Shown here: one piece after another, positions 3,677 to 15,082 of the stretch | Layout of the letters: the number at the start of each line of letters is the position of its first letter | How positions within the stretch are numbered: position 1 is the first letter of the stretch | Origin: Aeropyrum pernix K1 | GTDB lineage: Archaea; Thermoproteota; Thermoprotei_A; Sulfolobales; Acidilobaceae | Length of the DNA stretch: 32,000 nucleotides | Reading direction: 5' to 3' | Assembly: GCF_000011125.1 (NCBI RefSeq) | Contig: NC_000854.2 | Location: 150,001-182,000 of the forward strand | Notes under the pieces: model-generated | Databases searched by the model: none | What the model was told of the DNA's origin: nothing | What the model saw: the letters and a program-made list of their open reading frames with translations, nothing else | Made by a program: the position numbers and the translations under genes

Positions 3677-4536
3677 AACGCCTCTGAAGGGCTATGTGGC
3701 ACAGAGTATTGGAAACCCTCATCGCCTCTTATGGACTCCAGTATCTCAGGCGTCTTAGCGGCGGCCTCCTCGGCCGCCGGCCCAGGAGGGGCCCCTCTAA
3801 ACAGCATGATAGCGAACACCATAGTAAATATGTCCCCAGCTCCTGTCGGGTCTTCGACGAGTTTAGGAGGAGGTGGTATTGTGAGGCTGCCAGAGGGGCT
3901 GAGGACCTCGCCTCCGGCCTCGCCCCGGGTGTAGACTATGATGTTTGCCATAGGCTCGCGAGGGGGGTCACTGGCATCATCGCTTGATATATGGGCGAGT
4001 GAGCCTATCCTAGCCGTGGGGGGAGTCCAGACGGATGCGTAGCCTCGGTAATAGCCCTGCAGGTCAACAGCTGTTATGGCGCTGAAGTTGTTATGTATAT
4101 AGGATGCGAGGCCTCCATCGTCCTCCCCATGGAGGGGTGAGATGAGAACTACGTTGTACGCCCCTGCGCTGAGTACTCTTAACACTCTCGCGGGGTCTAG
4201 AGGCTCCGGCCTCCCTATGAGCGTTGACACCCTCTGACCGCCAGCCTTATACTTATGCCTGTATACGTAGCCTTCGCCGACAACACGGTAGCCTAGACGC
4301 TCGACGCCCAGCCGTCTCTCGACAACGGCTGTATCGAGAGTGGTATAACCAACTGGGCCCACAGCATAGGCTCTGCAGCCTAGCTTCCCGGCTGCGTACC
4401 CGGCGTATAGCGCGGGCCCGCCGGGCCTCCTGACGATGCTACCTCCTATCTCTACAACGTCTACCGTGGGGGGCGATACTATTAGGACTCTGCATATCGC
4501 CAAAAGCCACCGCCAAAATAAATGTCCTACGATCAA
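3667..4536 (-). CDS. PfkB/ribokinase-family carbohydrate kinase
   Basis: N-terminal GGPALYAGYAAGKLG and C-terminal DPTGAGDIF (PfkB signature 2). The TTG start at 4536 is uncertain, and the conserved core begins near VDVVEIGGS. There is a 10-nt overlap with the downstream protease gene. Confidence 0.75.
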   Translation of the reverse strand: MIVGHLFWRWLLAICRVLIVSPPTVDVVEIGGSIVRRPGGPALYAGYAAGKLGCRAYAVGPVGYTTLDTAVVERRLGVERLGYRVVGEGYVYRHKYKAGGQRVSTLIGRPEPLDPARVLRVLSAGAYNVVLISPLHGEDDGGLASYIHNNFSAITAVDLQGYYRGYASVWTPPTARIGSLAHISSDDASDPPREPMANIIVYTRGEAGGEVLSPSGSLTIPPPPKLVEDPTGAGDIFTMVFAIMLFRGAPPGPAAEEAAAKTPEILESIRGDEGFQYSVPHSPSEAFWI

Positions 4537-4577
4537 GCCTTCTATAACGGCTTCCTGCCGCCGGGAAATGGTGGTTT

Positions 4578-5789
4578 GTGTTGGAGGACCTGGAGCATGG
4601 GGTTGCCTCTAACGGGCTCCGCTACGGCTTCTATAGGGTAGAGAGCGAGAGCGCCGCTATCTGTATAGCCGCTAGGGGTGGAAGCAGTTTCGAGCCGCCC
4701 GGGAAGTATGGTATAGCACATCTAACAGAGCATATGATTTTCAGGGGGAACGAGTACCTGCAGGACGGAGAGCTGGACAGGGCTGTGGAACTATCGGGTG
4801 GCGAGGCTAACGCGTACACCACCAGGGAGCTCATTCTACTCTGCGCCGAGTTTGTATCCGACAGCCTCGCCAGAGTGGCTGAAAAACTCTTCCTTGCGGT
4901 ATCCGCCAGGAGGCTTGTCGAGGGCGAGTTTGAGAGGGAGAGGGCTGTTGTTGAGGCTGAGGTGAAGGGTTTGATTAGCAGCCCGGAGAGCAGGATCTAT
5001 AGGCTAGCCCACGCGAGCGCCTGGGGGGACAGCCACCTCGGCAGGCCTATAGAGGGTTACCCTGAGACTGTGGCAAATATTAGTAAGGCGGATGTGGAGG
5101 AGTACAAGGCCAGTGTGTTCAGCCCGGAGAGGATGTCTCTGGCTATAGTGGGCAGGATCTCTAGGCTGGAGGCTCTCCGGGTCGTGAAGCTCTTCAGCCA
5201 GCTAGAGCCCGGTGGAAAGGTGCGGGAGCCAGAGACGCCGGAGCCTAGGACCACATTCCTGAGGGAGGAGAGGGGTATTGAGGCAGCCTATGCAGCCCTC
5301 ACCCTCCCCCTGCCTCCGCGGAGCGGGTTGGCTAACGTCCTGGCAAGGCTAAGGGGCGTCGTATTCAACCTTGAGGCGGGTGCCACCAGTATTCTCTTCA
5401 AAGAAGTCAGGGAGGAGAGGGGCCTGGCATATGGTTTTAATGTAGACGTCCACATTACAAGCTGGGGCTCCAGTATGTCTCTGATCGTGCTTGAAGGCAA
5501 TAGAGATAGAGTTGGGGAACTCTTTGACGCCATGACGCGTTCCCTCGAAAGGGCGCTTCGCGGCGGCTACCCCGAAAGCGAGTGGCGGGAAGGGAGGAGG
5601 AGGCTCTACAGGTTTTACACTAGGAGGGAGGCGATCTCTAACATGGAGAGGGCCGATGCCCTCTCAGCGGTCATACTCTTCCATGAAAAGCCGTTCACGC
5701 TGGAGGACCTCGTAAACCAAACCCTCAGTAGCGAGTGGAGTCTTGAGGAGTTCCTAAGGCTCCCCCGGGGCTTAGCCCTCATAGTCTAG
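4578..5789 (+). CDS. M16 (pitrilysin/insulinase) family zinc peptidase
   Basis: Inverted zinc motif HLTEH in GIAHLTEHMIFRG, plus the downstream Glu-rich region typical of M16. GTG start. Confidence 0.8.
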   Translation: MLEDLEHGVASNGLRYGFYRVESESAAICIAARGGSSFEPPGKYGIAHLTEHMIFRGNEYLQDGELDRAVELSGGEANAYTTRELILLCAEFVSDSLARVAEKLFLAVSARRLVEGEFERERAVVEAEVKGLISSPESRIYRLAHASAWGDSHLGRPIEGYPETVANISKADVEEYKASVFSPERMSLAIVGRISRLEALRVVKLFSQLEPGGKVREPETPEPRTTFLREERGIEAAYAALTLPLPPRSGLANVLARLRGVVFNLEAGATSILFKEVREERGLAYGFNVDVHITSWGSSMSLIVLEGNRDRVGELFDAMTRSLERALRGGYPESEWREGRRRLYRFYTRREAISNMERADALSAVILFHEKPFTLEDLVNQTLSSEWSLEEFLRLPRGLALIV

Positions 5790-6505
5790 CGGCTCCTGTC
5801 GGACATCATCCTCCTAAAGAACGGGTTTGACGCTGAGAGCCTCCTGACAGCTTCCTCGAACGGCTCTTCCGGCGGCAGCTCAACTTTAATGTAGACCCCT
5901 GTTCTACCTAGCTCTCGCCTTCTCGTCAATACCCTAACCCTCTCCCTGACCGTCTCCAGGCTTATGCCGAGGACCTCAGCCACCCTCCCCTCGTTACCCA
6001 ACACAGGCTCCTCAACATGTCCACGTGGGGTTGGAACTACAAGGATGAGCCTCTTAGTAACACCCGGAGATCTGACGCCTCTTTCAAGCCCAGCAGCATC
6101 AACCTCGCCGCCCCACATGTAGAACTCCCTCTCCCTAGGTTGAAGCCTTGCTAGGGGCAGGCTGACCACCCTCTCCTCTGGGGGGTCTAGGACCAGGTAT
6201 GCCTTGGGAGTGCTACGGGGCGTCGCCATGACTATTATCCTCTTGTAAACCGTGAATCCTGAGGCCTCGAGAGCCTCCTCCACAAGCCCGGGCGGGACAG
6301 GCTCCACTATAGCCACGTCAACATCGCTGCCAGGGTGGACATCCCCCCTGGCCACGCTGCCGTGGACAACCGCCAGACCGGGGTGGACTGTGCGGGAGAG
6401 AGCCCTAACAATCTCTAGCGCCTTCCTCCGTTTTTCCCTTAGGAGGAGCCAGTGCTCCGGGGAGTACTCCACCTCCACTTGAGTAAACACCCTCCGGCCG
6501 GCCAT
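5786..6505 (-). CDS. Pol-beta-superfamily nucleotidyltransferase domain protein with a C-terminal HTH-like segment
   Basis: HGSVARGDVHPGSDVDVAIV is the GS...D.D minimal nucleotidyltransferase motif. VAEVLGISLETVRERVRVL looks like a helix-turn-helix. Confidence 0.7.
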   Translation of the reverse strand: MAGRRVFTQVEVEYSPEHWLLLREKRRKALEIVRALSRTVHPGLAVVHGSVARGDVHPGSDVDVAIVEPVPPGLVEEALEASGFTVYKRIIVMATPRSTPKAYLVLDPPEERVVSLPLARLQPREREFYMWGGEVDAAGLERGVRSPGVTKRLILVVPTPRGHVEEPVLGNEGRVAEVLGISLETVRERVRVLTRRRELGRTGVYIKVELPPEEPFEEAVRRLSASNPFFRRMMSDRSR

Positions 6506-6510
6506 GGGGT

Positions 6511-7101
6511 TTAGAGTTTCCTCAGTAGATCCGCCTCCCTGTCAACCCTGTATATCGGGGGGAGGCCGCTGAGGGTCTCAGCGGAGTGGCTTATGACTAT
6601 TGCGTGCTCGTCGGGCAAGTAGCTCCATTCGAAGTCCAGCTGTCTCGACGGCCTCGGCGGCTCCTCATCCTCCTCAAGGTAGTAGTAGACCTCCATGTGG
6701 ACCCCCTTCGGGCTCCATGTAACTACAAGCCTGTCCGCCTTCAGGTCACTACCCTCAAGTGCTATCATCTCAACCTCAAGCAGCCCCTCGTCGGGGTCGA
6801 AGTCAATCCCTTCCAGCTCGAACCTGCCCTTCGCGTTGAGTCTCTCCAGGAGGGGTGCTACTATATCCCTCCAAAGCGATACTCCATAGTAATAGAGCTC
6901 CTCGAACACTGATACATGCTTATTATGGCGCCTAACCCTTAGATTCTCCGCCCACTCTGCTATCTCCCTCCAGTAGGTGGAGGTTACGTCTGCCAACGTC
7001 CCTAGGAGTCTAGCCGGCTCTACACCCAGCCTTTCCGCCAGCCTACTAATCTTCTCTGCAGCTTCCCCCTCGAGCTCGACCTTCAGCACCTGCTTTTTCA
7101 A
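6511..7101 (-). CDS. hypothetical protein, 196 aa
   Basis: ATG ORF that overlaps the upstream methyltransferase gene by 4 nt and ends 5 nt before the nucleotidyltransferase gene, an operon-like arrangement. No family motif recognised. Confidence 0.55.
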   Translation of the reverse strand: MKKQVLKVELEGEAAEKISRLAERLGVEPARLLGTLADVTSTYWREIAEWAENLRVRRHNKHVSVFEELYYYGVSLWRDIVAPLLERLNAKGRFELEGIDFDPDEGLLEVEMIALEGSDLKADRLVVTWSPKGVHMEVYYYLEEDEEPPRPSRQLDFEWSYLPDEHAIVISHSAETLSGLPPIYRVDREADLLRKL

Positions 7102-7667
7102 TCTACCCTACCCCTTAGAACGTCTATCCTCATGATAACATCCTTACTTGTTACACCTAAAATCTGGGCCCCTGCCGCGAGGAGCTCATCCTTATAGGGG
7201 AGCCTCTTTAGCATGCTCACCACCACAGGCCCCCTTGATACCCTTATGAGCTCCTTAACAGCTCTCCACAAATCGTCCACGAGGTCGAGGACTGTGAAGC
7301 TGTAGACGGTGTCAAACACTCCACTGCCGAAGGGGAGCTTCTCAACATTACCCTCCAAGGCTATGCAGCTCCCGTTGCCGCATAGAACCCCAATCCTAAA
7401 CCGGGCTATACTTAACATGCAAGGGCTGTAGTCGAGGCATGTAAACAAGTCTACAGCGTCTAGGGAGCCATAGGAGGCCATATACTCGAGGAGGAGTCCA
7501 GTCCCGCAGCCAGCATCCAACACCCTACCCTGGGGCCTAACCCTCTTTAGGGCAACGAAAAACTTCTCATACTGTTCAGCCCTATACAGCTCGTCATAAC
7601 CGCTGCATGTCGCCTCGTACTTCTCCCTGATTACAGCTCCCTTACCCTCCAGGCTTCTATCGGACAA
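7098..7667 (-). CDS. class I SAM-dependent methyltransferase
   Basis: Motif I VLDAGCGTGLLLEY, the following acidic residue (CLDYS) and post-motif FDTVYSF, as in small UbiE/COQ5-like methyltransferases. Confidence 0.75.
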   Translation of the reverse strand: MSDRSLEGKGAVIREKYEATCSGYDELYRAEQYEKFFVALKRVRPQGRVLDAGCGTGLLLEYMASYGSLDAVDLFTCLDYSPCMLSIARFRIGVLCGNGSCIALEGNVEKLPFGSGVFDTVYSFTVLDLVDDLWRAVKELIRVSRGPVVVSMLKRLPYKDELLAAGAQILGVTSKDVIMRIDVLRGRVD

Positions 7668-7765
7668 AATGTCGGGCCCCCAAGTTCTGAGGGGGTGGCG
7701 GTTTTGGATTTCCCCCCGGCTGTGAGGAGGTGGGGCGTGGTTGTGTGGCCTCTGTTTAGTGGCCT

Positions 7766-8482
7766 CTACCTCTTCCTCCTCCCAGTCCTCCTGGCAGCTA
7801 TATGGCCCACCTTCCTTCCAGGCGGGGCCGTCCTGGCGACTGTGGAAGGCCTGCCCTTATGCTGGTGCCTCCCGCCTCCGAAGGGGTGGTCTACGGCGTT
7901 CATAGCCACACCCCTAACCCTAGGCCACTTCCTAGCCTTAACCTTCCACTTGTGGTATGCGAAGCCAGCCTTCATTATAGGCTTCTCTATCCTACCCGCA
8001 CCCGCTGGTATGCCGATGGTTGCCCTAGAGTCGTTGGGGACCTCTTTATCCTTCCCGCTGGGCAGCCGTAGAATGGTCTTGGCGCCAGCCCTACCCACCA
8101 CTAGGGCGTAGCTCCCGGCTTGTCTGGCCAGCTTGCCGCCGTCTCCAGGCCTGAGCTCGACGTTGAATACTTCCGTGCCCTCGGGTATTTTGCCTAGGGG
8201 GAGTATGTTGCCAGCCTCCGGCTTTGCAGCGGGCCCGATCTCTATAATCTGCCCGACGTACATTCCCTCAGCAGCTGGCATGAGAAACTCTACGCCATCC
8301 TCCCTCACAACCCTGGCAAGCGGCACATAGCGGCCGGGGTCGTGTATCAGCTCTACTACCTTTCCTCTTAAAGTGTCTCCTGAAAGTGGGGGGTATTTAG
8401 CCGGGCCCGGGTGTATATGGGCCCTGCTTCGATACGTCGGCGTTCCCCTGCCGGCCCTCTGCTGCCTCAGCCTCTTGCCCAT
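7766..8482 (-). CDS. rpl2: 50S ribosomal protein L2 (uL2)
   Basis: MGKRLRQQRAGRGTPTYRSRAH..., GDGGKLARQAGSYA, AMNAVDHPFGGGRHQHKGRPSTV and the basic C-terminus are diagnostic for archaeal uL2. A GGAGG lies just upstream of the ATG. Confidence 0.95.
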   Translation of the reverse strand: MGKRLRQQRAGRGTPTYRSRAHIHPGPAKYPPLSGDTLRGKVVELIHDPGRYVPLARVVREDGVEFLMPAAEGMYVGQIIEIGPAAKPEAGNILPLGKIPEGTEVFNVELRPGDGGKLARQAGSYALVVGRAGAKTILRLPSGKDKEVPNDSRATIGIPAGAGRIEKPIMKAGFAYHKWKVKARKWPRVRGVAMNAVDHPFGGGRHQHKGRPSTVARTAPPGRKVGHIAARRTGRRKR

Positions 8483-8494
8483 GCCTCCTACACC

Positions 8495-9880
8495 CTACCC
8501 TTCAACCCCATTGGTGCCCCGGGCCTTTTTAAGGTATTCATTGAACGGTGGTATCCTTACTGTTTGGAGCCTACCACCGGGCATCCTAACAACGGCCTCT
8601 CCGACGCCCAGCTCTACGAGCCCACCCCCGACGCCCAGCCGTGAAACTGACTCGACGTAGCCTCTGGCCTTCCCACCGAATGCTGCAACAACCCCTGCGT
8701 TAAACTCGATAGCCTCAGGCAGATCTCCTGGAGACTGTGTCGCGAAAACGCCGTATAGCCCCCGGCTCCTACCTTCCCTAGCTATACCCTCAAAGAACGA
8801 TGTCGAGCGGGAGAGCCTCCAGGCCTCGTCGACTATGAGCACAAGCCTACCCCTCCCCCCCGGCGATAAGGCGTACTCGACTAGAGAGGATGCTACCGCC
8901 TGCGCCGCAGCGTTCCTATCACTTCCCTCGAGCCGTCTTAGGCTGTAGACGGTGAGAGGGGATACAGGCGGTATGGTAGCCCCGGGGACGGGCAGCTGAC
9001 CGGTATCCCGCGGCTCTAGCAGGAAGGTTGTAAGAGGCTCAAGCAGCTCCGCCAAGTCGCCCTTAGGGTCTACGACGACAACCCCAAGAGGATCGCCTTC
9101 AACCTCTGACAGGAGCGCCAGCTGAACAGCCAGTCCGGCTAGGAGAACGGTTTTCCCCCTGCCAGTAGGGCCTACGACCAGCATGTGAGCCTCCAAATCG
9201 CGGGGCCAGCGTAAAGCGACGGGACCGCCCGTCTCAGCGGATACCCCCAGTAGGATCTCGCCTCCCCGGGGTATGCTCCCCTCAGGCCTGAACCGGGGGT
9301 TTAGGTGCCTTGCCCCCGCTTCCGCCAGGGACGCGGGAGACCAGTCGCCCGCTACAACATCGAACTTTACACCTACCTCTGCTTCGAGCATCGACTTGAA
9401 CTGTATGGCCTTACTATCGTCTGCGCCTTCCTCTATCCAGACGACTGCACCGAGCCTGCCTAGCCTGGGGGATCCCGTGGCAACGGCCTCCTTATAGAGG
9501 GACTCTAGTAGTGCAAGAGCAGACCTATACCTCCCTAGCCTTGTTGTCGAGTATTTGAATTCTACTCTCTTTATCTCCTCCTCGAGAGTCTCCACGAGCC
9601 TGGACTTCTCCACAGGTATGTAGCTGTAGAATATGGAGACTGGAGCAGGAGTCCGCATAGCAAGGGAGTATAGCCTATCTCCCAATCCCTCAACGTTCTC
9701 CGGATTATCTCTAGCTAGAAGGACAACGGGCCTCCTCGAGCCTTCCTCACCCTCAACCCTGAGGAGCTTACCAGCCCTCCGTGACAGTATTGCAGCCCTG
9801 TTCGACAAGGTTTTCCTATATAGCAAGCCGGCCGCCGCTGACATTATTATGATTGTTACTATATCTATTGCGCCAGGCAC
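8495..9880 (-). CDS. cedB: membrane-anchored FtsK/HerA/VirB4-type P-loop ATPase (CedB-like)
   Basis: N-terminal hydrophobic helix IDIVTIIIMSAAAGLLY. Walker A GPTGRGKT (9149..9172), VVVDPKGD, Walker B LVLIVDEAW (about 8825..8850) and FATQSPGDL. The GTG start lies 20 nt after the stop of the upstream membrane gene. Confidence 0.8.
   Translation of the reverse strand: MPGAIDIVTIIIMSAAAGLLYRKTLSNRAAILSRRAGKLLRVEGEEGSRRPVVLLARDNPENVEGLGDRLYSLAMRTPAPVSIFYSYIPVEKSRLVETLEEEIKRVEFKYSTTRLGRYRSALALLESLYKEAVATGSPRLGRLGAVVWIEEGADDSKAIQFKSMLEAEVGVKFDVVAGDWSPASLAEAGARHLNPRFRPEGSIPRGGEILLGVSAETGGPVALRWPRDLEAHMLVVGPTGRGKTVLLAGLAVQLALLSEVEGDPLGVVVVDPKGDLAELLEPLTTFLLEPRDTGQLPVPGATIPPVSPLTVYSLRRLEGSDRNAAAQAVASSLVEYALSPGGRGRLVLIVDEAWRLSRSTSFFEGIAREGRSRGLYGVFATQSPGDLPEAIEFNAGVVAAFGGKARGYVESVSRLGVGGGLVELGVGEAVVRMPGGRLQTVRIPPFNEYLKKARGTNGVEG
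8526..8532 (-). promoter_or_regulatory. candidate TATA element for rpl2, embedded in the last codons of the upstream ATPase gene
   Basis: The minus strand reads ATACCTTAAAAAGGCC (codons YLKKA of the ATPase). TTAAAAA is centred about 47 nt upstream of the rpl2 ATG, which would leave a ~20-nt leader containing GGAGG. Confidence 0.3.
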
Positions 9881-9900
9881 GCCAAACCCCCCAGCTATCC

Positions 9901-11259
9901 CTACATAATCTTGAGTCTCAGCCTGGCGCCTCCGCCCAGCAGTCTAGCCAAGCCTGTAGTCGCCACTAGGAGGATTGACAGGTACATGCCCGGGAGGGTT
10001 ATGTAATAGACTATTATCATCTTTAAAACGTCGAGCGTTATATAGTCTAGGAGGCTAACTAGCGTCTCGGAATAATCCTTTGCAATCCTCTCTAAACCGG
10101 CGTCAGCGTCACAGTCCCCCCACTTCTCCACCCAAACTACTATCCTTCCCTCCCCACTGGGCTCTACATAGACATACTCTCCCTTCAGCCCCTCCCATGT
10201 CCAGCTGCCCTCGCCCCTCACATCACCCTCTCTGACACTATATTGGGGTTTACAGCCCTCTAGCCAAGCTATCTCAACGTAGTCTCCATCCTTCAGCCCC
10301 TCCCAGCTGGCGACAACTCCCTCCTCTCCCTCGGTAACTCTGGCTGGCTGTTTGCTTCCATACACCATAACACTCTCTCCCCCCATGAAGGCTATGTGGG
10401 GAACGTGCAGTTCGATGCTTGTTCCAGCGGTCGACGTGTCTAGGGCTGGCGGGTCAGGCTTGAAAGTGACTCCCATATACTCGAGTGTGAACGAGACCAG
10501 GCCGAGGGGTGCCTGCACCCTGGGGATCTTGACGAGTGAACTGTAGGCTACTCCGCCTTTAACTACGTAGCTCGCCACCTCCTCACCCCCGCTGTGGATT
10601 CTTAATAGACCTGCCTCTACTACCCCGCTGCTGCTTGTAACGGTAATCCTACCAACCCATACGCCCTCAGCTCCAGCCACAGCCGGAGGGTCTCCTATGG
10701 ATTCGACGAAAAGGGGGAGAGCGGGTAGGGCTGCGTTAAACACTATGACAAAGGCTATAAGCCAGGCCCCCGCTGGCTTGGCCACCCTGAAGGGTACTGC
10801 ATAGAGGAGGACGCCCAGGCTGAGAAGGATCTGACTATATCCGAGTAGATACTTAAGCCCCAGGACTGTGGCCGCTAGGAGAGTGACGGCCCAGGAGAGC
10901 TCGTCCATAACCGACGCTGCGGCAGAAGCAAGAGGCTTGAGAGCCTCGAGAGGGTCGGGGAGGCTAGTTACTAAGCTGGAAAGCGCCTTCAGGGAAGCGG
11001 CAAAAACGACTGCGTCAAAGAGCCAGGCGTCCAGCTGGGGCCAAGAACCGCCTATAAGGAGCTGGAGGTAGCCAGCTACTGCGATTAGCGCCGCAGCCGT
11101 AAGTGCTAGGAGAGCCGCTATTAGAGAGTCCTCGACCAGCGTTGACGCCCACCTCTTTATAGAAGAAGCGGGGATGGGTGCAGCGTAGATAAGTACTCCA
11201 AGGTAGAATCCAAGCATAGCAAGCTTGAACGCCAGTAGTTGGAGGTCACCACCCTCCAC
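9901..11259 (-). CDS. cedA: polytopic membrane protein (6 N-terminal TM helices, ~210-aa soluble beta-rich insert, 1 C-terminal TM); VirB6-like/CedA-like
   Basis: By eye, hydrophobic stretches lie at aa 8-27, 44-68, 78-98, 121-140, 142-157, 164-184 and 412-435. Residues ~190-400 are hydrophilic and rich in V/G/E/S/T. The GTG start is 5 nt after the stop of the small pilin-like gene. Confidence 0.7.
   Translation of the reverse strand: MEGGDLQLLAFKLAMLGFYLGVLIYAAPIPASSIKRWASTLVEDSLIAALLALTAAALIAVAGYLQLLIGGSWPQLDAWLFDAVVFAASLKALSSLVTSLPDPLEALKPLASAAASVMDELSWAVTLLAATVLGLKYLLGYSQILLSLGVLLYAVPFRVAKPAGAWLIAFVIVFNAALPALPLFVESIGDPPAVAGAEGVWVGRITVTSSSGVVEAGLLRIHSGGEEVASYVVKGGVAYSSLVKIPRVQAPLGLVSFTLEYMGVTFKPDPPALDTSTAGTSIELHVPHIAFMGGESVMVYGSKQPARVTEGEEGVVASWEGLKDGDYVEIAWLEGCKPQYSVREGDVRGEGSWTWEGLKGEYVYVEPSGEGRIVVWVEKWGDCDADAGLERIAKDYSETLVSLLDYITLDVLKMIIVYYITLPGMYLSILLVATTGLARLLGGGARLRLKIM
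10182..10305 (-). repeat. exact 16-nt direct repeat ccttcagcccctccca (10182..10197 and 10290..10305), 108 nt apart, inside the cedA-like gene
   Basis: Read directly from the sequence. The copies encode the duplicated peptide W(E)GLK(D)G..Y: SWEGLKDGDYVEI at aa 318-330 and TWEGLKGEYVYVE at aa 354-366, exactly 36 codons apart. Confidence 0.9.
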
Positions 11260-11264
11260 GGCAG

Positions 11265-11528
11265 CTAACCTCCGCCGAGGAGGACCTCGTTCACAATGCC
11301 CGCCAGCCTAACTATCACGGCGAACACGGTAGTCCCTAGAGCCAGCCAGAGAGCCGCCCACATCGAGTCCTCAATAAGGCTGTTGCCGACCCGCTTAATC
11401 CTAGACGAGGGGATCGGGCTCCCCCTAAGCGTCCACCCTATACTCCAGGAGAGGAGGAAGAGGGCCCATGCCAACGCCGTAAGCTTCCCCGTCAGGTCCT
11501 CAACCATCTGCACTATGTCTGCAGCCAT
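11265..11528 (-). CDS. cedA1: 87-aa two-helix membrane protein, VirB2/TraA-pilin-like (CedA1-like)
   Basis: Two hydrophobic helices (LTALAWALFLLSWSIGWTL and MWAALWLALGTTVFAVIVRLAGIV) are joined by a basic loop (RGSPIPSSRIKRVGN). It is the first gene of a tightly spaced three-gene array and has an ATG start. Confidence 0.65.
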   Translation of the reverse strand: MAADIVQMVEDLTGKLTALAWALFLLSWSIGWTLRGSPIPSSRIKRVGNSLIEDSMWAALWLALGTTVFAVIVRLAGIVNEVLLGGG

Positions 11529-11596
11529 ACGCCCCCCCAGTAGAGTGGAGTTAGTGAGGTCCTGTGGGTGGGGGGTGTCGGACGTGTGTGCGGGTC

Positions 11597-11621
11597 GAGT
11601 AAAAGTTTGGCTTGAGTAAAA
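11597..11621 (-). promoter_or_regulatory. two copies of TTTTACTC (minus sense) 17 nt apart, in the spacer upstream of the pilin-like gene
   Basis: gagtaaaa occurs at 11597..11604 and 11614..11621 on the + strand. These are the only AT-rich elements in the 103-nt spacer between the prpB-like stop (11632) and the cedA1-like ATG (11528). They could be TATA/BRE elements, an operator, or a T-tract terminator for the upstream gene. Confidence 0.3.
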
Positions 11622-11631
11622 CGTGGGGGGC

Positions 11632-12588
11632 TTAACCAGTCCGGGAGTTATTGTGTCTAGCCAGAAGCTCCTCTGCCTTCCTGCTCACCTCAGCATCCCT
11701 CTTCTCGTAGTCATGGTAACCTATGAGGTCGTAGAACTCGGTTCTAGTGTATAGCTTATCGAGTATGTCTTTCTGTGTGCCCTTCTCCATTATCTCCCTG
11801 AGAACGGTTTCGGAAGCCTTTAGTGACGCCCTGAACGTTGTAACAGGGAATATGACAATCTTGTAACCCGCCTCTCTGAACTGGTCTACAGTAATATACG
11901 GTGTCTTACCGAACTCCGTCATGTTAGCGAGCAGAGGAGCTTTAACCCTCCTGGCGAACTCCCTAAACTCTTCAAGACTGGTAAGCGCCTCTGGGAATAT
12001 AATGTCTGCTCCAGCCTCGACGTATAGCTGTGCCCTCTCAACCGCCTTCTCGAACCCCTCAACACCCCTCGCATCCGTTCTAGCCACTATCAAGGCATCC
12101 CTCCTGGCCCCTACTGCTGCAATAATTTTCTTCACCATGTCCTCAGGACTGATAAGCGCCTTCCCCTGCAGGTGGCCGCATTTCTTCGGCATAACCTGGT
12201 CCTCTATCTGTATGGCCGCTGCCCCCGCCCTCTCGAGCTCCCTCACAGTCCTCTCAACGTTGATAGCCTCCCCAAATCCCGTGTCGGCATCAACGATGAC
12301 AGGAACCCTGACAACGCGAGTTATATAACTTGTGAACATGGCCAGTTCGCTCAGAGTTATGAGTCCGAGATCGGGCATGGCCAAACTCCCTGTTATCGCC
12401 GCTCCCGAGAGGTAAAGGGCCTCAAACCCCATCCTCTCAGCGAGCAGGGCCACCGCGGGGTTGTAGACCCCCGGCGCCACCACAATATCGCGTTTCTCGA
12501 TAAGCTCCCTCAACACTAACCCTGGCCTCTCCAAAGGCTCCCTATAGAGAAACGCCATGTTTAGACACCCCAAGTATGGTGTGGCCAC
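11632..12588 (-). CDS. prpB: isocitrate lyase/PEP mutase superfamily enzyme, most like 2-methylisocitrate lyase
   Basis: Diagnostic KKCGHLQGK, DADTGFG and EDQV motifs, and a ~300-aa length. The start is ambiguous: GTG at 12588 or ATG at 12558 (MAFLYREPL...). Confidence 0.75.
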   Translation of the reverse strand: MATPYLGCLNMAFLYREPLERPGLVLRELIEKRDIVVAPGVYNPAVALLAERMGFEALYLSGAAITGSLAMPDLGLITLSELAMFTSYITRVVRVPVIVDADTGFGEAINVERTVRELERAGAAAIQIEDQVMPKKCGHLQGKALISPEDMVKKIIAAVGARRDALIVARTDARGVEGFEKAVERAQLYVEAGADIIFPEALTSLEEFREFARRVKAPLLANMTEFGKTPYITVDQFREAGYKIVIFPVTTFRASLKASETVLREIMEKGTQKDILDKLYTRTEFYDLIGYHDYEKRDAEVSRKAEELLARHNNSRTG

Positions 12589-12872
12589 CCGGAGGTTTAA
12601 AGCAAGCGACAGCTCCAGCTGTTATTAGGCTGCAGCAACATTTGGAAGTGTGGGTGGATTGATATGGGTGGTAGGCAGAAGACTACGCTATTCATGGACA
12701 CCTCCAAGCGGGGAGAAGAACAGAGAGAACAGCAGCAGAAGAAGGGGAAGAAGAGTAAGGGATAGCACAGCTGCGTCTGTAGGCTCTTGGAGCAACAGCG
12801 TTTTTTGCACCAGCCATCAGCCCCAAAATACCTCCTGGACACGACGAGTTGGGAGGGCGTGACGAGAGTCTA

Positions 12873-13766
12873 ATGCAGGGCTGGTGCAGCGTTATGGACA
12901 GCAGCTCCACTTGTTTCGAATGGCCGTCTAGGAGGAGGCATAACCCTCTTGCCGTGGCCCTCCCCTCCAGCATACTCAGGGTAGAGCCAACGCTGCTTCT
13001 AAAGACGCTCAAGGCAGGGCAGATAGGGAGAGTTGCGGCCATCTACCGGGTGGACGAAATAGCTGTTTTTGAGGACCCAGACTCCTCGCCACGCCTATCG
13101 AGGCTTCTCCAACTCCTCCTCAACTACCAGGCTACACCGCCCCATCTGAAGAAGAGGGTTTTCCCCTTAAGGAGAGAGCTCAAGTACGCCTCCCTGATGC
13201 CGCCGCTTAAGATACCGAGCCACACCGTGCCGGCGGAACCTAAGGTGGGCGCCATACTGGATGGGTATGTTGAATCTTGTAGCGGTAAATCGTGTAGGGT
13301 GTTCCTGGGAAGCATGGGCTATGGAGTTCTAAGGGGTAGGGCGAGGCCGGGAGATGTAGTTACCGTGAGAATAGGCGAGATAAGTGGCGGCAGAATCGTC
13401 CTTGAGAAGGCCTCCTGGGGCGAACTATACTACGGGTTCTCAGTCTCGCGGTTCAAACGTCTTGAGGAGGCGGTCACGAGTTTTAGGAGGCGGGGGTATA
13501 GAGTCGTAGCTACAGACAAAAATGGCCTATGCCCGCCCGAATCCTGGAAGATCCTCGCCGAGATTCCCTCCGCTAAAACTCTCGTCGTTTTCGGCGGGCC
13601 CTACAAGGGGGTTCTAGAGTATACTAACCCGTATCTGTATGACGGCGTTGTCAACGTGATACCCCGTCAGGGAACAGAGACGGTGAGGACAGAGGAAGCA
13701 CTGTTAGCCACACTAGAGGCTATAAGCGTCCTCGAATCTCTCCGACAGTCCTCCGGACAGGAGTGA
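12873..13766 (+). CDS. DUF171/COG2106-type putative SPOUT RNA methyltransferase
   Basis: LAVALPSSILRVEPTLLLKTLKAGQIGRVAAIYRVDEIAVFED and the C-terminal NVIPRQGTETVRTEEALLATL match the family pattern as I remember it. The start is uncertain: TTG 12849, ATG 12873 or ATG 12894. Confidence 0.65.
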   Translation: MQGWCSVMDSSSTCFEWPSRRRHNPLAVALPSSILRVEPTLLLKTLKAGQIGRVAAIYRVDEIAVFEDPDSSPRLSRLLQLLLNYQATPPHLKKRVFPLRRELKYASLMPPLKIPSHTVPAEPKVGAILDGYVESCSGKSCRVFLGSMGYGVLRGRARPGDVVTVRIGEISGGRIVLEKASWGELYYGFSVSRFKRLEEAVTSFRRRGYRVVATDKNGLCPPESWKILAEIPSAKTLVVFGGPYKGVLEYTNPYLYDGVVNVIPRQGTETVRTEEALLATLEAISVLESLRQSSGQE

Positions 13767-14006
13767 TTCGGAGGCCTCACCGGCTCACACGCTCCAACAG
13801 CCTTAGACTAGACGCCAGCATAACGGCCGCGCCACCCCCCGTCTATCTTAGGCTGGTGAGGAAGCTTTCTGTATAAAAACGTGGGCCCGAGATACTGGCG
13901 GCCCCGGTCGTTTTGGAAGCGATCATAGTGAGGCGCTCGCGTGGGTGGGGTTGTGATGGGTGTGCCCTGGAGGTAACACTATGTCACTATAATAGGCTTG
14001 AACGCG

Positions 14007-14030
14007 AGACTCCCTTTCTAGCGGGAGTCT
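14007..14030 (+). promoter_or_regulatory. perfect 8-bp inverted repeat (AGACTCCC-N8-GGGAGTCT) 17 nt upstream of the rpl3 start codon
   Basis: Read directly. TATA-like CTATAATAGG lies at 13987..13996 and TATAAAAA at 13872..13879, so the palindrome is either at the transcription start or inside a 5' leader. Confidence 0.35.
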
Positions 14031-14047
14031 AGCCAGGGTGCTCTACA

Positions 14048-15082
14048 GTGGGAGCTAGGAAGAAGAGAGCGCCAAGGAGAGGTAGCCTGGGCTTCTCGCC
14101 CAGGAAGAGGGCGTCGAGGCTTGTGCCCAGGGTTAAGAGATGGCCTGAAGTCGATATTGGCAAGCCTGTACCCCTCGCATTCCTCGGGTACAGGGCTGGC
14201 ATGACCCACGTGTTCATGGTTGACGACAGGCCTGGGAGGCCGACAAGCGGGAAGGAGATATTCGTGCCAGTAACTATTGTGGAGACCCCGCCCATGTTTG
14301 TGGCTGCAGTGAGACTCTACGGTTACGACCCCAACAGGGGCCGCTACAGTCTGGGGGAGGCGTGGGCTCAGCCTCCTCCAGAACTAGAACTCCAGAGGAG
14401 GATCTCCACCCTAGGCTCCTTCGACACTGATAAGATGCTGAAGAGTCTGGAGGAGAGGCTTGACAAGGCCGAGGACGTCAGGCTGATAGCAGCCAGCCAG
14501 CCAAAGCTTGCTGGCGGTTTGAGCAAGAAGAAGCCCGACCTTCTGGAGATAAAAGTAGGCGGTGTGAGCGACGTTACCAAGCTCTTCGACTATGCAAAGG
14601 ATGTCCTAGGCAACCTAATAGCAGTTAACGACGTTTTCGAGGAAGGCCAGCTCGTCGACGTCATCGCCGTGACGAAGGGGAAAGGGTTCCAAGGCGTAAT
14701 CAAGAGGTGGGGCGTCAAGGAGCTTCCAAGGTGGCACAAGCATAGGAAGGGTAGCAGAAGGATAGGGGCGAGGAGCCACGGTAGGAGCACATTCTGGGAA
14801 ACCCCCCAGGCAGGCCAGACCGGATTCCACAGGAGGACGGAGTATAACAAGAGGATATTGATGATAGACGACGACGGCTACAAGGTGACCCCTGCAGGCG
14901 GGTTCCTTAGGTACGGTGTTGTTAGGAGTACATTTGTAATGCTGTCGGGCAGCATACCCGGAACGCCTAAGAGGCCCATTGTGATGAGGTGGGCTATAAG
15001 ACCTCCGGAGTGGTACCTGAAGCTCGGCGTTAGAAAGCCCGAGATAACCTATATAAGCCTTGCAAGCAAGCAGGGCGTCTAG
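14048..15082 (+). CDS. rpl3: 50S ribosomal protein L3 (uL3)
   Basis: MGARKKRAPRRGSLGFSPRKRA..., VTKGKGFQGVIKRWG and HRKGSRRIGARSHG are diagnostic. GTG start. Confidence 0.95.
   Translation: MGARKKRAPRRGSLGFSPRKRASRLVPRVKRWPEVDIGKPVPLAFLGYRAGMTHVFMVDDRPGRPTSGKEIFVPVTIVETPPMFVAAVRLYGYDPNRGRYSLGEAWAQPPPELELQRRISTLGSFDTDKMLKSLEERLDKAEDVRLIAASQPKLAGGLSKKKPDLLEIKVGGVSDVTKLFDYAKDVLGNLIAVNDVFEEGQLVDVIAVTKGKGFQGVIKRWGVKELPRWHKHRKGSRRIGARSHGRSTFWETPQAGQTGFHRRTEYNKRILMIDDDGYKVTPAGGFLRYGVVRSTFVMLSGSIPGTPKRPIVMRWAIRPPEWYLKLGVRKPEITYISLASKQGV

What the first reader, a model, noticed from the sequence alone, without database searches (positions are those of the whole stretch)
11077..11420. The N-terminus of the polytopic membrane protein is a paralog of the small pilin-like protein
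Small protein aa 37-71 is SPIPSSRIKRVGNSLIEDSMWAALWLALGTTVFAV (11316..11420). Large protein aa 27-61 is APIPASSIKRWASTLVEDSLIAALLALTAAALIAV (11077..11181). An ungapped alignment gives 16/35 identities by my hand count, and 14 of the first 24. In both proteins a hydrophobic helix precedes the segment and a GG-containing turn follows it. So the channel-like protein begins with a complete pilin-like hairpin fused to the rest of the membrane domain. This could serve as a built-in pilus base or nucleation subunit, or as a docking site that mimics the pilin. I am not aware of this fusion being discussed.
Basis: seen in the sequence. Interest (0 to 1): 0.65.

Follow-up and report, generated by a model that had tools for sequence, protein, structure and literature searches.

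The report
CedA starts with a CedA1 pilin copy
The similarity is real: the membrane protein CedA of the Aeropyrum pernix DNA-import (Ced) machine begins with an ancient copy of its neighbour, the CedA1 pilin, but this was already published in 2023, so it confirms known biology.

Summary
Observation confirmed. Both segments lie on the minus strand at the stated coordinates, with 16/35 and 14/24 identities. The match extends over about 70 residues (small protein aa 14-83, large protein aa 4-73). It is significant: BLASTP E=2e-8, Smith-Waterman 110 against 37±6 for TM-segment-preserving shuffles, and hhalign 95.7%, E=9e-9.

The small protein is 100% identical to PDB 8DFU, the cryo-EM-solved A. 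pernix CedA1 conjugative-type pilin. The large protein is CedA, which the literature describes as VirB6-like. The next gene is the VirB4/HerA-like ATPase CedB.

The pilin-like N-terminus is present in all 78 cedA genes found next to cedA1 across Desulfurococcales and Sulfolobaceae and in 96% of 143 CedA representatives. Control regions of the same proteins scored at most 7.6 bits. An AlphaFold model of CedA superposes on the solved pilin at 1.2 Å over 67 aligned positions.

The novelty claim fails. Beltran et al. 2023 (PMC9905601, Discussion and Suppl. Fig. [quoted passage not shown] The proposed roles (pilus base, nucleation or docking) are plausible but untested. Verdict: already known, low interest.

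The parts
11265..11528 (-). cedA1: 87-aa two-helix conjugative-type (VirB2-like) pilin of the Ced DNA-import system
   Evidence: 84/84 residues identical to PDB 8DFU, the A. pernix conjugation pilus. NCBIfam Ced_CedA1 119.3 bits against a cutoff of 100. 54 homologues found.
11280..11489 (-). Part of CedA1 (aa 14-83: helix 1, PIP..K..ED loop, helix 2) that is homologous to the CedA N-terminus
   Evidence: BLASTP, hhalign, joint alignment.
9901..11259 (-). cedA: 452-aa polytopic membrane protein (described as VirB6-like in the literature), starting 5 nt downstream of cedA1
   Evidence: NCBIfam Ced_CedA E=2.4e-31 (109 bits, below the equivalog cutoff of 330) and CedE E=2e-19. 191 homologues in the representative search. 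Lies immediately downstream of cedA1 in 78/80 loci. AlphaFold2 model has mean pLDDT 92.
11041..11250 (-). CedA aa 4-73: N-terminal pilin-like helical hairpin, paralogous to CedA1.
   Evidence: Model helices H3-26 and H32-69, with a break in helix 2 at residue 54. Foldseek against 8DFU: RMSD 1.2 Å over 67 aligned positions, target TM-score 0.74, 36% identity. G21, P28, P30 and K35 are invariant and D44 is 96% conserved; these match CedA1 G31, P38, P40, K45 and D54.
10693..11040 (-). CedA aa 74-189: remaining helices of the N-terminal transmembrane bundle, with no similarity to CedA1
   Evidence: AlphaFold2 helices 73-98, 102-139, 142-154 and 161-189. The CedA1 HMM scores at most 7.6 bits on residues 101-200 of 143 CedA homologues.
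10126..10662 (-). CedA aa 200-378: all-beta insertion domain, probably extracellular; absent from Sulfolobaceae CedA
   Evidence: AlphaFold2 strands 200-378 with pLDDT mostly above 90. Only weak beta-sandwich, S-layer or Ig-like matches. The short forms skip profile positions of roughly 200-404.
9940..10074 (-). CedA aa 396-440: C-terminal helices (the last TM helix), followed by a basic tail
   Evidence: AlphaFold2 helices 396-404 and 409-440. Hydropathy. Conserved in both short and long forms.
8495..9880 (-). cedB: 461-aa membrane-anchored VirB4/HerA/FtsK-type P-loop ATPase, 20 nt downstream of cedA
   Evidence: Pfam FtsK_SpoIIIE, DUF87 (HerA central) and HerA_C each just above their gathering cutoffs. 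NCBIfam DNA_import_CedB is the best hit (E=3e-12, far below the equivalog cutoff).
11529..11631 (-). 103-nt intergenic region upstream of cedA1, with two TTTTACTC copies (11621-11614 and 11604-11597); probable promoter region of the cedA1-cedA-cedB operon
   Evidence: Sequence read; ORF layout. The promoter function is inferred, not tested.

Best explanation
The locus is the cedA1-cedA-cedB operon of the Aeropyrum pernix Ced (Crenarchaeal exchange of DNA) system, a chromosomally encoded relative of type IV secretion/conjugation machinery.

Shown here:
- The small protein is the CedA1 pilin, whose pilus structure is solved.
- The first ~70 residues of CedA are an ancient paralog of nearly the whole pilin: helix 1, a Pro-x-Pro..Lys..Asp loop, and helix 2.
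- The duplication predates the split of Desulfurococcales and Sulfolobaceae, and both copies are under strong purifying selection.

Inferred (my probability about 0.4): CedA oligomerises like bacterial VirB6, which is a pentamer. Its pilin-like hairpins would sit in the membrane as a ring of pseudo-pilin subunits. Free CedA1 would pack against them using the same helix-helix and lipid contacts it uses in the pilus. The ring would therefore act as recruitment site and template ('layer zero') for the five-start CedA1 pilus. The conserved basic/acidic loop would line the cytoplasmic mouth of the conduit and continue into the pilus lumen. The ATPase CedB would then lever pilins out of the membrane onto this base.
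For: Identity of the genes: 8DFU match 84/84; NCBIfam CedA1, CedA and CedB assignments; HerA/FtsK ATPase domains; identification as APE_0220a in the paper.

Homology: BLASTP E=2e-8; shuffle P about 1e-7; hhalign 95.7%, E=8.9e-9 over 67 columns; cross-hits of each protein to the other's NCBIfam model at E=6e-7 and 7.6e-6; CedA profile against the PDB hits only the pilin, E=8.8e-10.

Conservation: the CedA1 HMM scores a median of 25.8 bits on the N-terminal 100 aa of 143 CedA representatives, and 96% reach 12 bits or more. Residues 101-200 of the same proteins, shuffled N-termini and reversed N-termini all score at most 7.6 bits. All 78 cedA genes adjacent to cedA1 in 80 genomes carry the hairpin. 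The same residues are invariant or nearly so in both families, in register: A, L, G, P-x-P, K, L, D.

Structure: the template-free AlphaFold2 model (pLDDT 92) of the CedA N-terminus superposes on the experimental pilin at 1.2 Å over 67 aligned positions.

Age of the duplication: same-genome CedA1/CedA-N pairs are 34.3% identical and cross-genome pairs 33.3%.

Mechanism (literature only):
- All conjugative pili, including that of A. pernix, have five-start protofilaments (PMC9905601).
- VirB6 is a pentamer proposed as the pilus base. All 50 top co-evolving VirB2-VirB6 residue pairs fall in VirB6 TM helix alpha1, and mutations there reduce conjugation (PMC9259494).
- AlphaFold3 builds pili on VirB6-like pentamers (bioRxiv 10.64898/2025.12.18.695078).
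- Five of the eight invariant columns in the 53-sequence CedA alignment lie in the hairpin, so it is the most constrained part of CedA.
Against: No result here shows CedA oligomerisation, CedA-CedA1 contact, or the position of the hairpin within an assembled complex. Multimer modelling was not available.

The authors who first reported the homology favoured a different reading: a common membrane-export pathway and shared ancestry.

The tiny excess of same-genome over cross-genome identity (1 percentage point, z=3) gives no support for tight co-adaptation of the two hairpins.

The link between CedA and VirB6 was not recovered by my profile-to-sequence search or by Foldseek. It rests on published HHpred and structure superpositions.

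Ced pili have never been seen in Sulfolobales (PMC11823120), yet their CedA keeps the hairpin, so a role independent of long pili is possible.
Confidence: 0.9

Rival explanations
1. Shared membrane-targeting and insertion module. The hairpin is conserved in both proteins because both use the same signal-peptide-independent insertion route with N-terminus outside and loop inside. The PxP..K..D loop would be the topogenic or insertase-recognition element. The CedA copy would have no structural role in the pilus.
For: This is the reading offered by Beltran et al. [quoted passage not shown] CedA1 is not processed and has no signal peptide. The hairpin is at the extreme N-terminus in every CedA. 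The conserved residues cluster in the basic loop, which by the positive-inside rule faces the cytoplasm.
Against: Ordinary polytopic archaeal membrane proteins need no specific conserved sequence motif to insert. The degree of invariance (G, PxP, K, D identical in two families that are only about 33% identical overall) is more typical of a specific protein-protein or protein-lipid interface. TedC of the related Ted system uses a cleavable Sec signal instead.
Confidence: 0.3
2. Common handle for the ATPase. The conserved cytoplasmic loop of both proteins is the binding site for the VirB4-like ATPase CedB. CedB would anchor on CedA through it and use the same recognition to extract (dislocate) CedA1 from the membrane.
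For: VirB4 is reported to dislocate VirB2 from the membrane, as cited in PMC9259494. [quoted passage not shown] The shared invariant residues lie in or next to the loop. cedB is co-operonic here.
Against: There is no direct evidence. In the assembled pilus the same loop faces the lumen, so its conservation in CedA1 already has another explanation. This rival is compatible with the template model rather than exclusive of it.
Confidence: 0.2
3. Chance resemblance of two hydrophobic TM hairpins (compositional artefact).
For: Both segments are Ala/Leu-rich TM helices, which inflate naive identity counts.
Against: Composition-adjusted BLASTP E=2e-8. None of 2000 segment-preserving shuffles come near the observed score. 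The other TM helices of the same proteins, and shuffled or reversed N-termini, score at most 7.6 bits against a median of 25.8. The strongest identities are in the polar loop, not the TM helices.
Confidence: 0.01
4. Recent lineage-specific duplication or gene conversion between adjacent genes in Aeropyrum.
For: The two genes are adjacent and on the same strand, 5 nt apart.
Against: The hairpin is present in all 78 cedA genes across Desulfurococcales and Sulfolobaceae. Same-genome pairs are no more alike than cross-genome pairs (34.3% against 33.3%). Protein identity is only about 33-43%.
Confidence: 0.01

Closest known systems
CedA / CedA1 homology reported by Beltran et al. 2023 (Nat Commun 14:666, PMC9905601; Discussion and Suppl. 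Fig. 2c)
   Same: It is the same observation on the same organism's proteins. [quoted passage not shown]
   Different: Nothing essential differs.
VirB2 pilin / VirB6 of bacterial type IV secretion systems (A. tumefaciens, R388)
   Same: A two-helix lipid-binding pilin and a polytopic inner-membrane protein. The same paper reports weak N-terminal similarity between them (HHsearch 66.6% probability, E=0.001). The VirB6 pentamer is the proposed pilus base, with its TM helix alpha1 as the VirB2 recruitment site (PMC9259494).
   Different: My tools detected no sequence similarity between the Ced proteins and VirB2 or VirB6. Bacterial VirB2 is processed and the system exports DNA, whereas Ced imports DNA and CedA1 is unprocessed. 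The paralogy is far clearer in Ced (E about 1e-8) than in VirB.
TedC / TedA of the Thermoproteales Ted system
   Same: A pilin gene directly upstream of a seven-TM VirB6/CedA-like gene, with a VirB4-like ATPase nearby.
   Different: TedC has a cleavable Sec signal peptide and no recognisable sequence similarity to CedA1. Whether TedA starts with a TedC-like hairpin was not tested here.
CedE (CedA paralog of Saccharolobus; PMC11868833)
   Same: The N-terminus of the NCBIfam CedE model (positions 9-69) is also hit by the A. pernix pilin (E=5e-7). The pilin-like hairpin is therefore retained in this CedA paralog too.
   Different: CedE is restricted to Saccharolobus and is involved in both import and export. 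A. pernix has a single long-form CedA with a beta-domain insertion.

Membership tests
CedA1 pilin (NCBIfam NF041797 Ced_CedA1) - small protein | Scores above the curated equivalog cutoff of the family model | tested here: met
   119.3 bits against a cutoff of 100; residues 5-78 cover model positions 1-74 of 75.
CedA1 pilin - small protein | Forms the lipid-bound conjugative-type pilus (experimentally solved subunit) | tested here: met
   84/84 identity to PDB 8DFU, 'Cryo-EM structure of conjugation pili from Aeropyrum pernix'. The paper identifies the subunit as APE_0220a.
CedA1 pilin - small protein | Encoded directly upstream of cedA | tested here: met
   5-nt gap in the window. 78 of 80 related loci show the same arrangement; the other two contigs end too soon to tell.
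CedA (NCBIfam NF041796 Ced_CedA) - large protein | Scores above the curated equivalog cutoff | tested here: not met
   109.3 bits against a cutoff of 330. The match covers model positions 7-192 of 259 plus a second stretch. The 259-position model has the length of the Sulfolobaceae short form (~259 aa), and the A. pernix protein carries a roughly 200-aa insertion. The protein is therefore homologous but not an NCBI 'equivalog'. The literature nevertheless calls it CedA.
CedA - large protein | Polytopic (6-7 TM) membrane protein co-encoded with CedA1 and a VirB4/HerA-like ATPase | tested here: met
   AlphaFold2 helices and hydropathy; operon layout; synteny.
CedA - large protein | N-terminal region homologous to CedA1 (feature described by Beltran et al.) | tested here: met
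VirB6 / TrbL family - large protein | Detectable sequence or structural similarity to solved VirB6 (for example R388 TrwI) | tested here: not met
   No VirB6 chain appears among the PDB hits of the 53-sequence CedA profile at E up to 10, nor among the 50 matches listed by Foldseek for the full-length model. There is no Pfam hit. The published link comes from HHpred (TedA-CedA 98.6%; TedA-VirB6) and from superposition of AlphaFold models.
VirB6 / TrbL family - large protein | Pentameric assembly forming the pilus base | not testable with these tools
   Only single-chain prediction was available.
VirB2 / TraA conjugative pilins - small protein | Two-helix hairpin that polymerises with stoichiometric lipid into a five-start tube with the loop facing the lumen | not tested
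   Taken from the cryo-EM paper. There is no sequence similarity to bacterial pilins in the PDB.
CedB (NCBIfam NF041017) / VirB4-HerA-FtsK ATPases - downstream protein | Family model cutoff; P-loop ATPase of the HerA/FtsK clade | tested here: inconclusive
   The CedB model is the best NCBIfam hit, but at 45.9 bits against a cutoff of 700. Pfam FtsK_SpoIIIE (25.6 vs 24), DUF87 (25.9 vs 23.2) and HerA_C (22.7 vs 22) are just above their cutoffs.

The most novel reading that the evidence does not exclude
The pilin-like hairpins of a CedA (and by extension VirB6) pentamer could literally be the first, permanently anchored layer of the conjugative pilus, a covalently tethered 'layer zero'. This layer would set the five-start geometry and lipid stoichiometry. 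The pilin would then have arisen by release of this module from the channel protein. A corollary: the VirB2-VirB6 alpha1 co-evolution signal used to define the pilin 'recruitment site' in R388 could partly reflect this paralogy. None of the papers I read states this explicitly, and my data do not exclude it.
Probability: 0.3. Interest if true: 0.5.

Novelty: already known. Interest (0 to 1): 0.15.

Why it matters
The paralogy links the pilus subunit and the membrane platform of conjugation-type machines. It bears on how type IV secretion pili are nucleated and on whether the pilin evolved from the channel protein. Because it is already in the literature, its value here is as confirmation with additional numbers. 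It shows that the relationship is ancient and universal in the Ced family, and that it is concentrated in a G/PxP/K/D loop signature that could guide mutagenesis.

Tried and rejected
- The local Pfam scan of CedA1 and CedA gave no family. The protein database nevertheless attaches a precomputed PF27251.1 to both. That model is not in the local copy, so its name is unknown to me.
- The search for related loci with the 53-sequence CedA alignment failed because no stretch was conserved enough. I used the CedA1 alignment instead.
- Foldseek with the full-length CedA model did not recover VirB6 and gave only weak beta-sandwich hits for the insertion. The pilin hit had a poor E-value (0.34) because it is short, but probability 1.00, target TM-score 0.74 and RMSD 1.2 Å.
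- The HMM-to-sequence PDB search also did not find VirB6 or VirB2.
- I tested for concerted evolution or gene conversion between the adjacent genes and rejected it: same-genome pairs 34.3% identical, cross-genome pairs 33.3%.
- The 'GG turn' as a shared feature is rejected as a homologous character. It is out of register and not conserved in CedA1.
- The sigma-70 promoter and terminator scan is uninformative for an archaeon.
Model coordinates were not exposed, so I could not check whether the hairpin lies on the periphery of the TM bundle.
Full report
**1. What is at the coordinates**

Three co-directional minus-strand ORFs form a tight cluster:
- an 87-aa ORF (11265..11528);
- 5 nt downstream, a 452-aa ORF (9901..11259);
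- 20 nt further downstream, a 461-aa ORF (8495..9880).

The ungapped counts are 16/35 identities and 14 of the first 24.

**2. Is it more than chance?**

Yes.
- BLASTP with compositional matrix adjustment aligns small aa 14-55 with large aa 4-45: 18/42 identical, 67% positives, E=2e-8. The preceding hydrophobic helix is therefore part of the homologous region.
- The Smith-Waterman score is 110. Whole-sequence shuffles of the small protein give 36±6. Shuffles that preserve the composition of each TM helix and loop give 37±6 (maximum 69). None of 2000 reach the observed score, and Gumbel P is about 1e-7. The rest of the large protein's TM region scores at most 34.
- Against all 177,635 distinct PDB sequences, the large protein's only significant hit is the small protein's own solved structure (E=2.2e-5). 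A profile of 53 CedA homologues raises this to E=8.8e-10.
- Profile-profile comparison of 22 small-protein orthologues with 3 large-protein orthologues gives 95.7% probability and E=8.9e-9 over 67 columns, aligning small 17-83 with large 7-73.

One detail does not hold as a homologous feature. The 'GG turn' is the C-terminus of the small protein but an inter-helix turn in the large one. It is three positions out of register, and it is not conserved in small-protein orthologues.

**3. What the genes are**

The small protein is identical (84/84) to PDB 8DFU, the cryo-EM structure of the Aeropyrum pernix conjugation-type pilus. It also passes the NCBIfam CedA1 equivalog cutoff, 119.3 bits against 100. 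Beltran et al. 2023 identify this pilin as APE_0220a.

The large protein's best NCBIfam hits are CedA (E=2.4e-31) and its paralog CedE. Both are below the equivalog cutoffs. The 259-position CedA model has the length of the Sulfolobaceae short form (~259 aa), whereas this protein carries an insertion.

The third protein is a membrane-anchored HerA/FtsK/VirB4-type P-loop ATPase, and its best NCBIfam hit is CedB.

The window therefore holds the cedA1-cedA-cedB operon of the Ced DNA-import system of A. pernix. The 100%-identical protein clusters sit on a contig of 1,669,696 bp.

**4. Conservation in orthologues**

An exhaustive profile search found 191 CedA homologues. Almost all matches start within about ten residues of the protein's N-terminus.

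A CedA1 HMM scores a median of 25.8 bits on the first 100 residues of 143 CedA representatives; 96% reach 12 bits or more and 75% reach 20 bits or more. Residues 101-200 of the same proteins, shuffled N-termini and reversed N-termini never exceed 7.6 bits.

A scan of one genome per GTDB species with the CedA1 alignment returned 80 loci. They come from Aeropyrum, Acidilobaceae, Pyrodictiaceae, Thermodiscus, Hyperthermus, Thermogladius, Ignisphaera, Caldisphaera, Saccharolobus, Acidianus and Metallosphaera.
- In 78 of the 80 loci, cedA follows cedA1 on the same strand. The other two contigs end too early to tell.
- All 78 CedA ORFs carry the CedA1-like N-terminus, 64 of them at i-E below 1e-3.

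A joint alignment shows that the positions conserved in at least 70% of both families carry the same residue in eight of ten cases, in register. The pairs (CedA1/CedA) are A20/A10, L23/L13, G31/G21, P38/P28, P40/P30, K45/K35, L51/L41 and D54/D44. These lie at the end of helix 1, in the inter-helix loop and at the start of helix 2. Five of the eight invariant columns of the 53-sequence CedA alignment lie in this hairpin.

Same-genome CedA1/CedA-N pairs are 34.3% identical and cross-genome pairs 33.3% (z=3, a one-point difference). The duplication is therefore ancient, and gene conversion is not maintaining the similarity.

**5. Structure**

A template-free AlphaFold2 model of CedA has mean pLDDT 92.1 and pTM 0.73. 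Its elements are:
- helices 3-26 and 32-69, with a break in helix 2 at residue 54;
- four more helices up to residue 189;
- an all-beta domain (strands 200-378);
- C-terminal helices 396-440.

Foldseek against the PDB superposes the N-terminal hairpin on the experimental pilin 8DFU at RMSD 1.2 Å over 67 aligned positions, with target TM-score 0.74, 36% identity and probability 1.00. 'A complete pilin-like hairpin' is a fair description. Only the first ~13 residues of the pilin have no counterpart in CedA.

**6. Comparison with what is known**

The finding is published. Beltran et al. [quoted passage not shown] They add that A. tumefaciens VirB2 and VirB6 give the same result at lower significance: 66.6% probability, E=0.001. 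They also speculate that the pilin is the later derivative.

The protein database attaches the same precomputed Pfam accession (PF27251.1) to both CedA1 and CedA homologues. The statement 'I am not aware of this fusion being discussed' is therefore not correct.

**7. How it most likely works**

Shown: the paralogy, its age, its universality in the family, and its concentration in the loop signature.

Inferred from literature:
- Conjugative pili, including that of A. pernix, are built of five-start protofilaments.
- Bacterial VirB6 is a pentamer proposed as the pilus base.
- All 50 top VirB2-VirB6 co-evolving pairs map to VirB6 TM helix alpha1, where mutations lower conjugation (Macé et al. 2022).
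- AlphaFold3 builds pili on VirB6-like pentamers.

The explanation I favour (about 0.4) is that a ring of CedA hairpins acts as tethered pseudo-pilins that recruit and template CedA1. Two rivals overlap with it:
- a shared insertion or export module, which is Beltran et al.'s suggestion (about 0.3);
- a shared handle for the CedB ATPase (about 0.2).

Chance similarity and recent duplication are excluded. None of the functional models could be tested, because only single-chain prediction was available.

**8. Verdict**

Novelty is 'already known' and interest is low.

Noticed in passing
window 10126..10662 (-), CedA aa ~200-378: A. pernix CedA carries a confidently predicted all-beta domain of about 180-200 aa, inserted between the N-terminal TM bundle and the last TM helix. 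From the distribution of basic residues it is probably extracellular. It is present in 73 of 78 cedA loci (446-618 aa ORFs). It is missing from the five Sulfolobaceae loci (about 255-260 aa; L054, L058, L071, L075, L078). There are only weak, non-significant similarities to S-layer, thread or Ig-like beta-sandwich domains. Its role is unknown; it could be a stalk, span the S-layer, or act as an adhesin.
   Followed up: partly
window 11597..11621 (-), upstream of cedA1: Two copies of TTTTACTC, 17 nt apart start to start (11621-11614 and 11604-11597), lie in the 103-nt intergenic region, about 70-90 nt upstream of the cedA1 ATG. They could be TATA-like or regulator sites of the ced operon.
   Followed up: no
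window 8495..9880 (-), cedB: The ATPase is short (461 aa, against the 590-position NCBIfam CedB model). It matches that model only around the Walker A region (45.9 bits against a cutoff of 700) and has an N-terminal hydrophobic anchor. No CedD- or CedA2-like gene was seen among the ORFs of at least 70 aa listed for 4000..9600 or those of at least 40 aa listed for 9500..14500.
   Followed up: partly
CedA1 and CedA homologues (P0001-P0058): The precomputed Pfam accession PF27251.1 is attached to both the pilin and the CedA proteins. The local Pfam-A copy gives no hit for either, so a newer curated family apparently spans both.
   Followed up: no
window 11632..12588 (-): The gene upstream of the ced operon encodes a 318-aa protein that, by eye, looks like a PEP-mutase/isocitrate-lyase-type enzyme. 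Ribosomal protein genes flank the region: an L2-like ORF at 7766..8482 and an L3-like ORF at 14048..15082. The ced operon therefore sits among housekeeping genes, consistent with a 'domesticated' chromosomal system. These assignments were made by eye and not tested.
   Followed up: no
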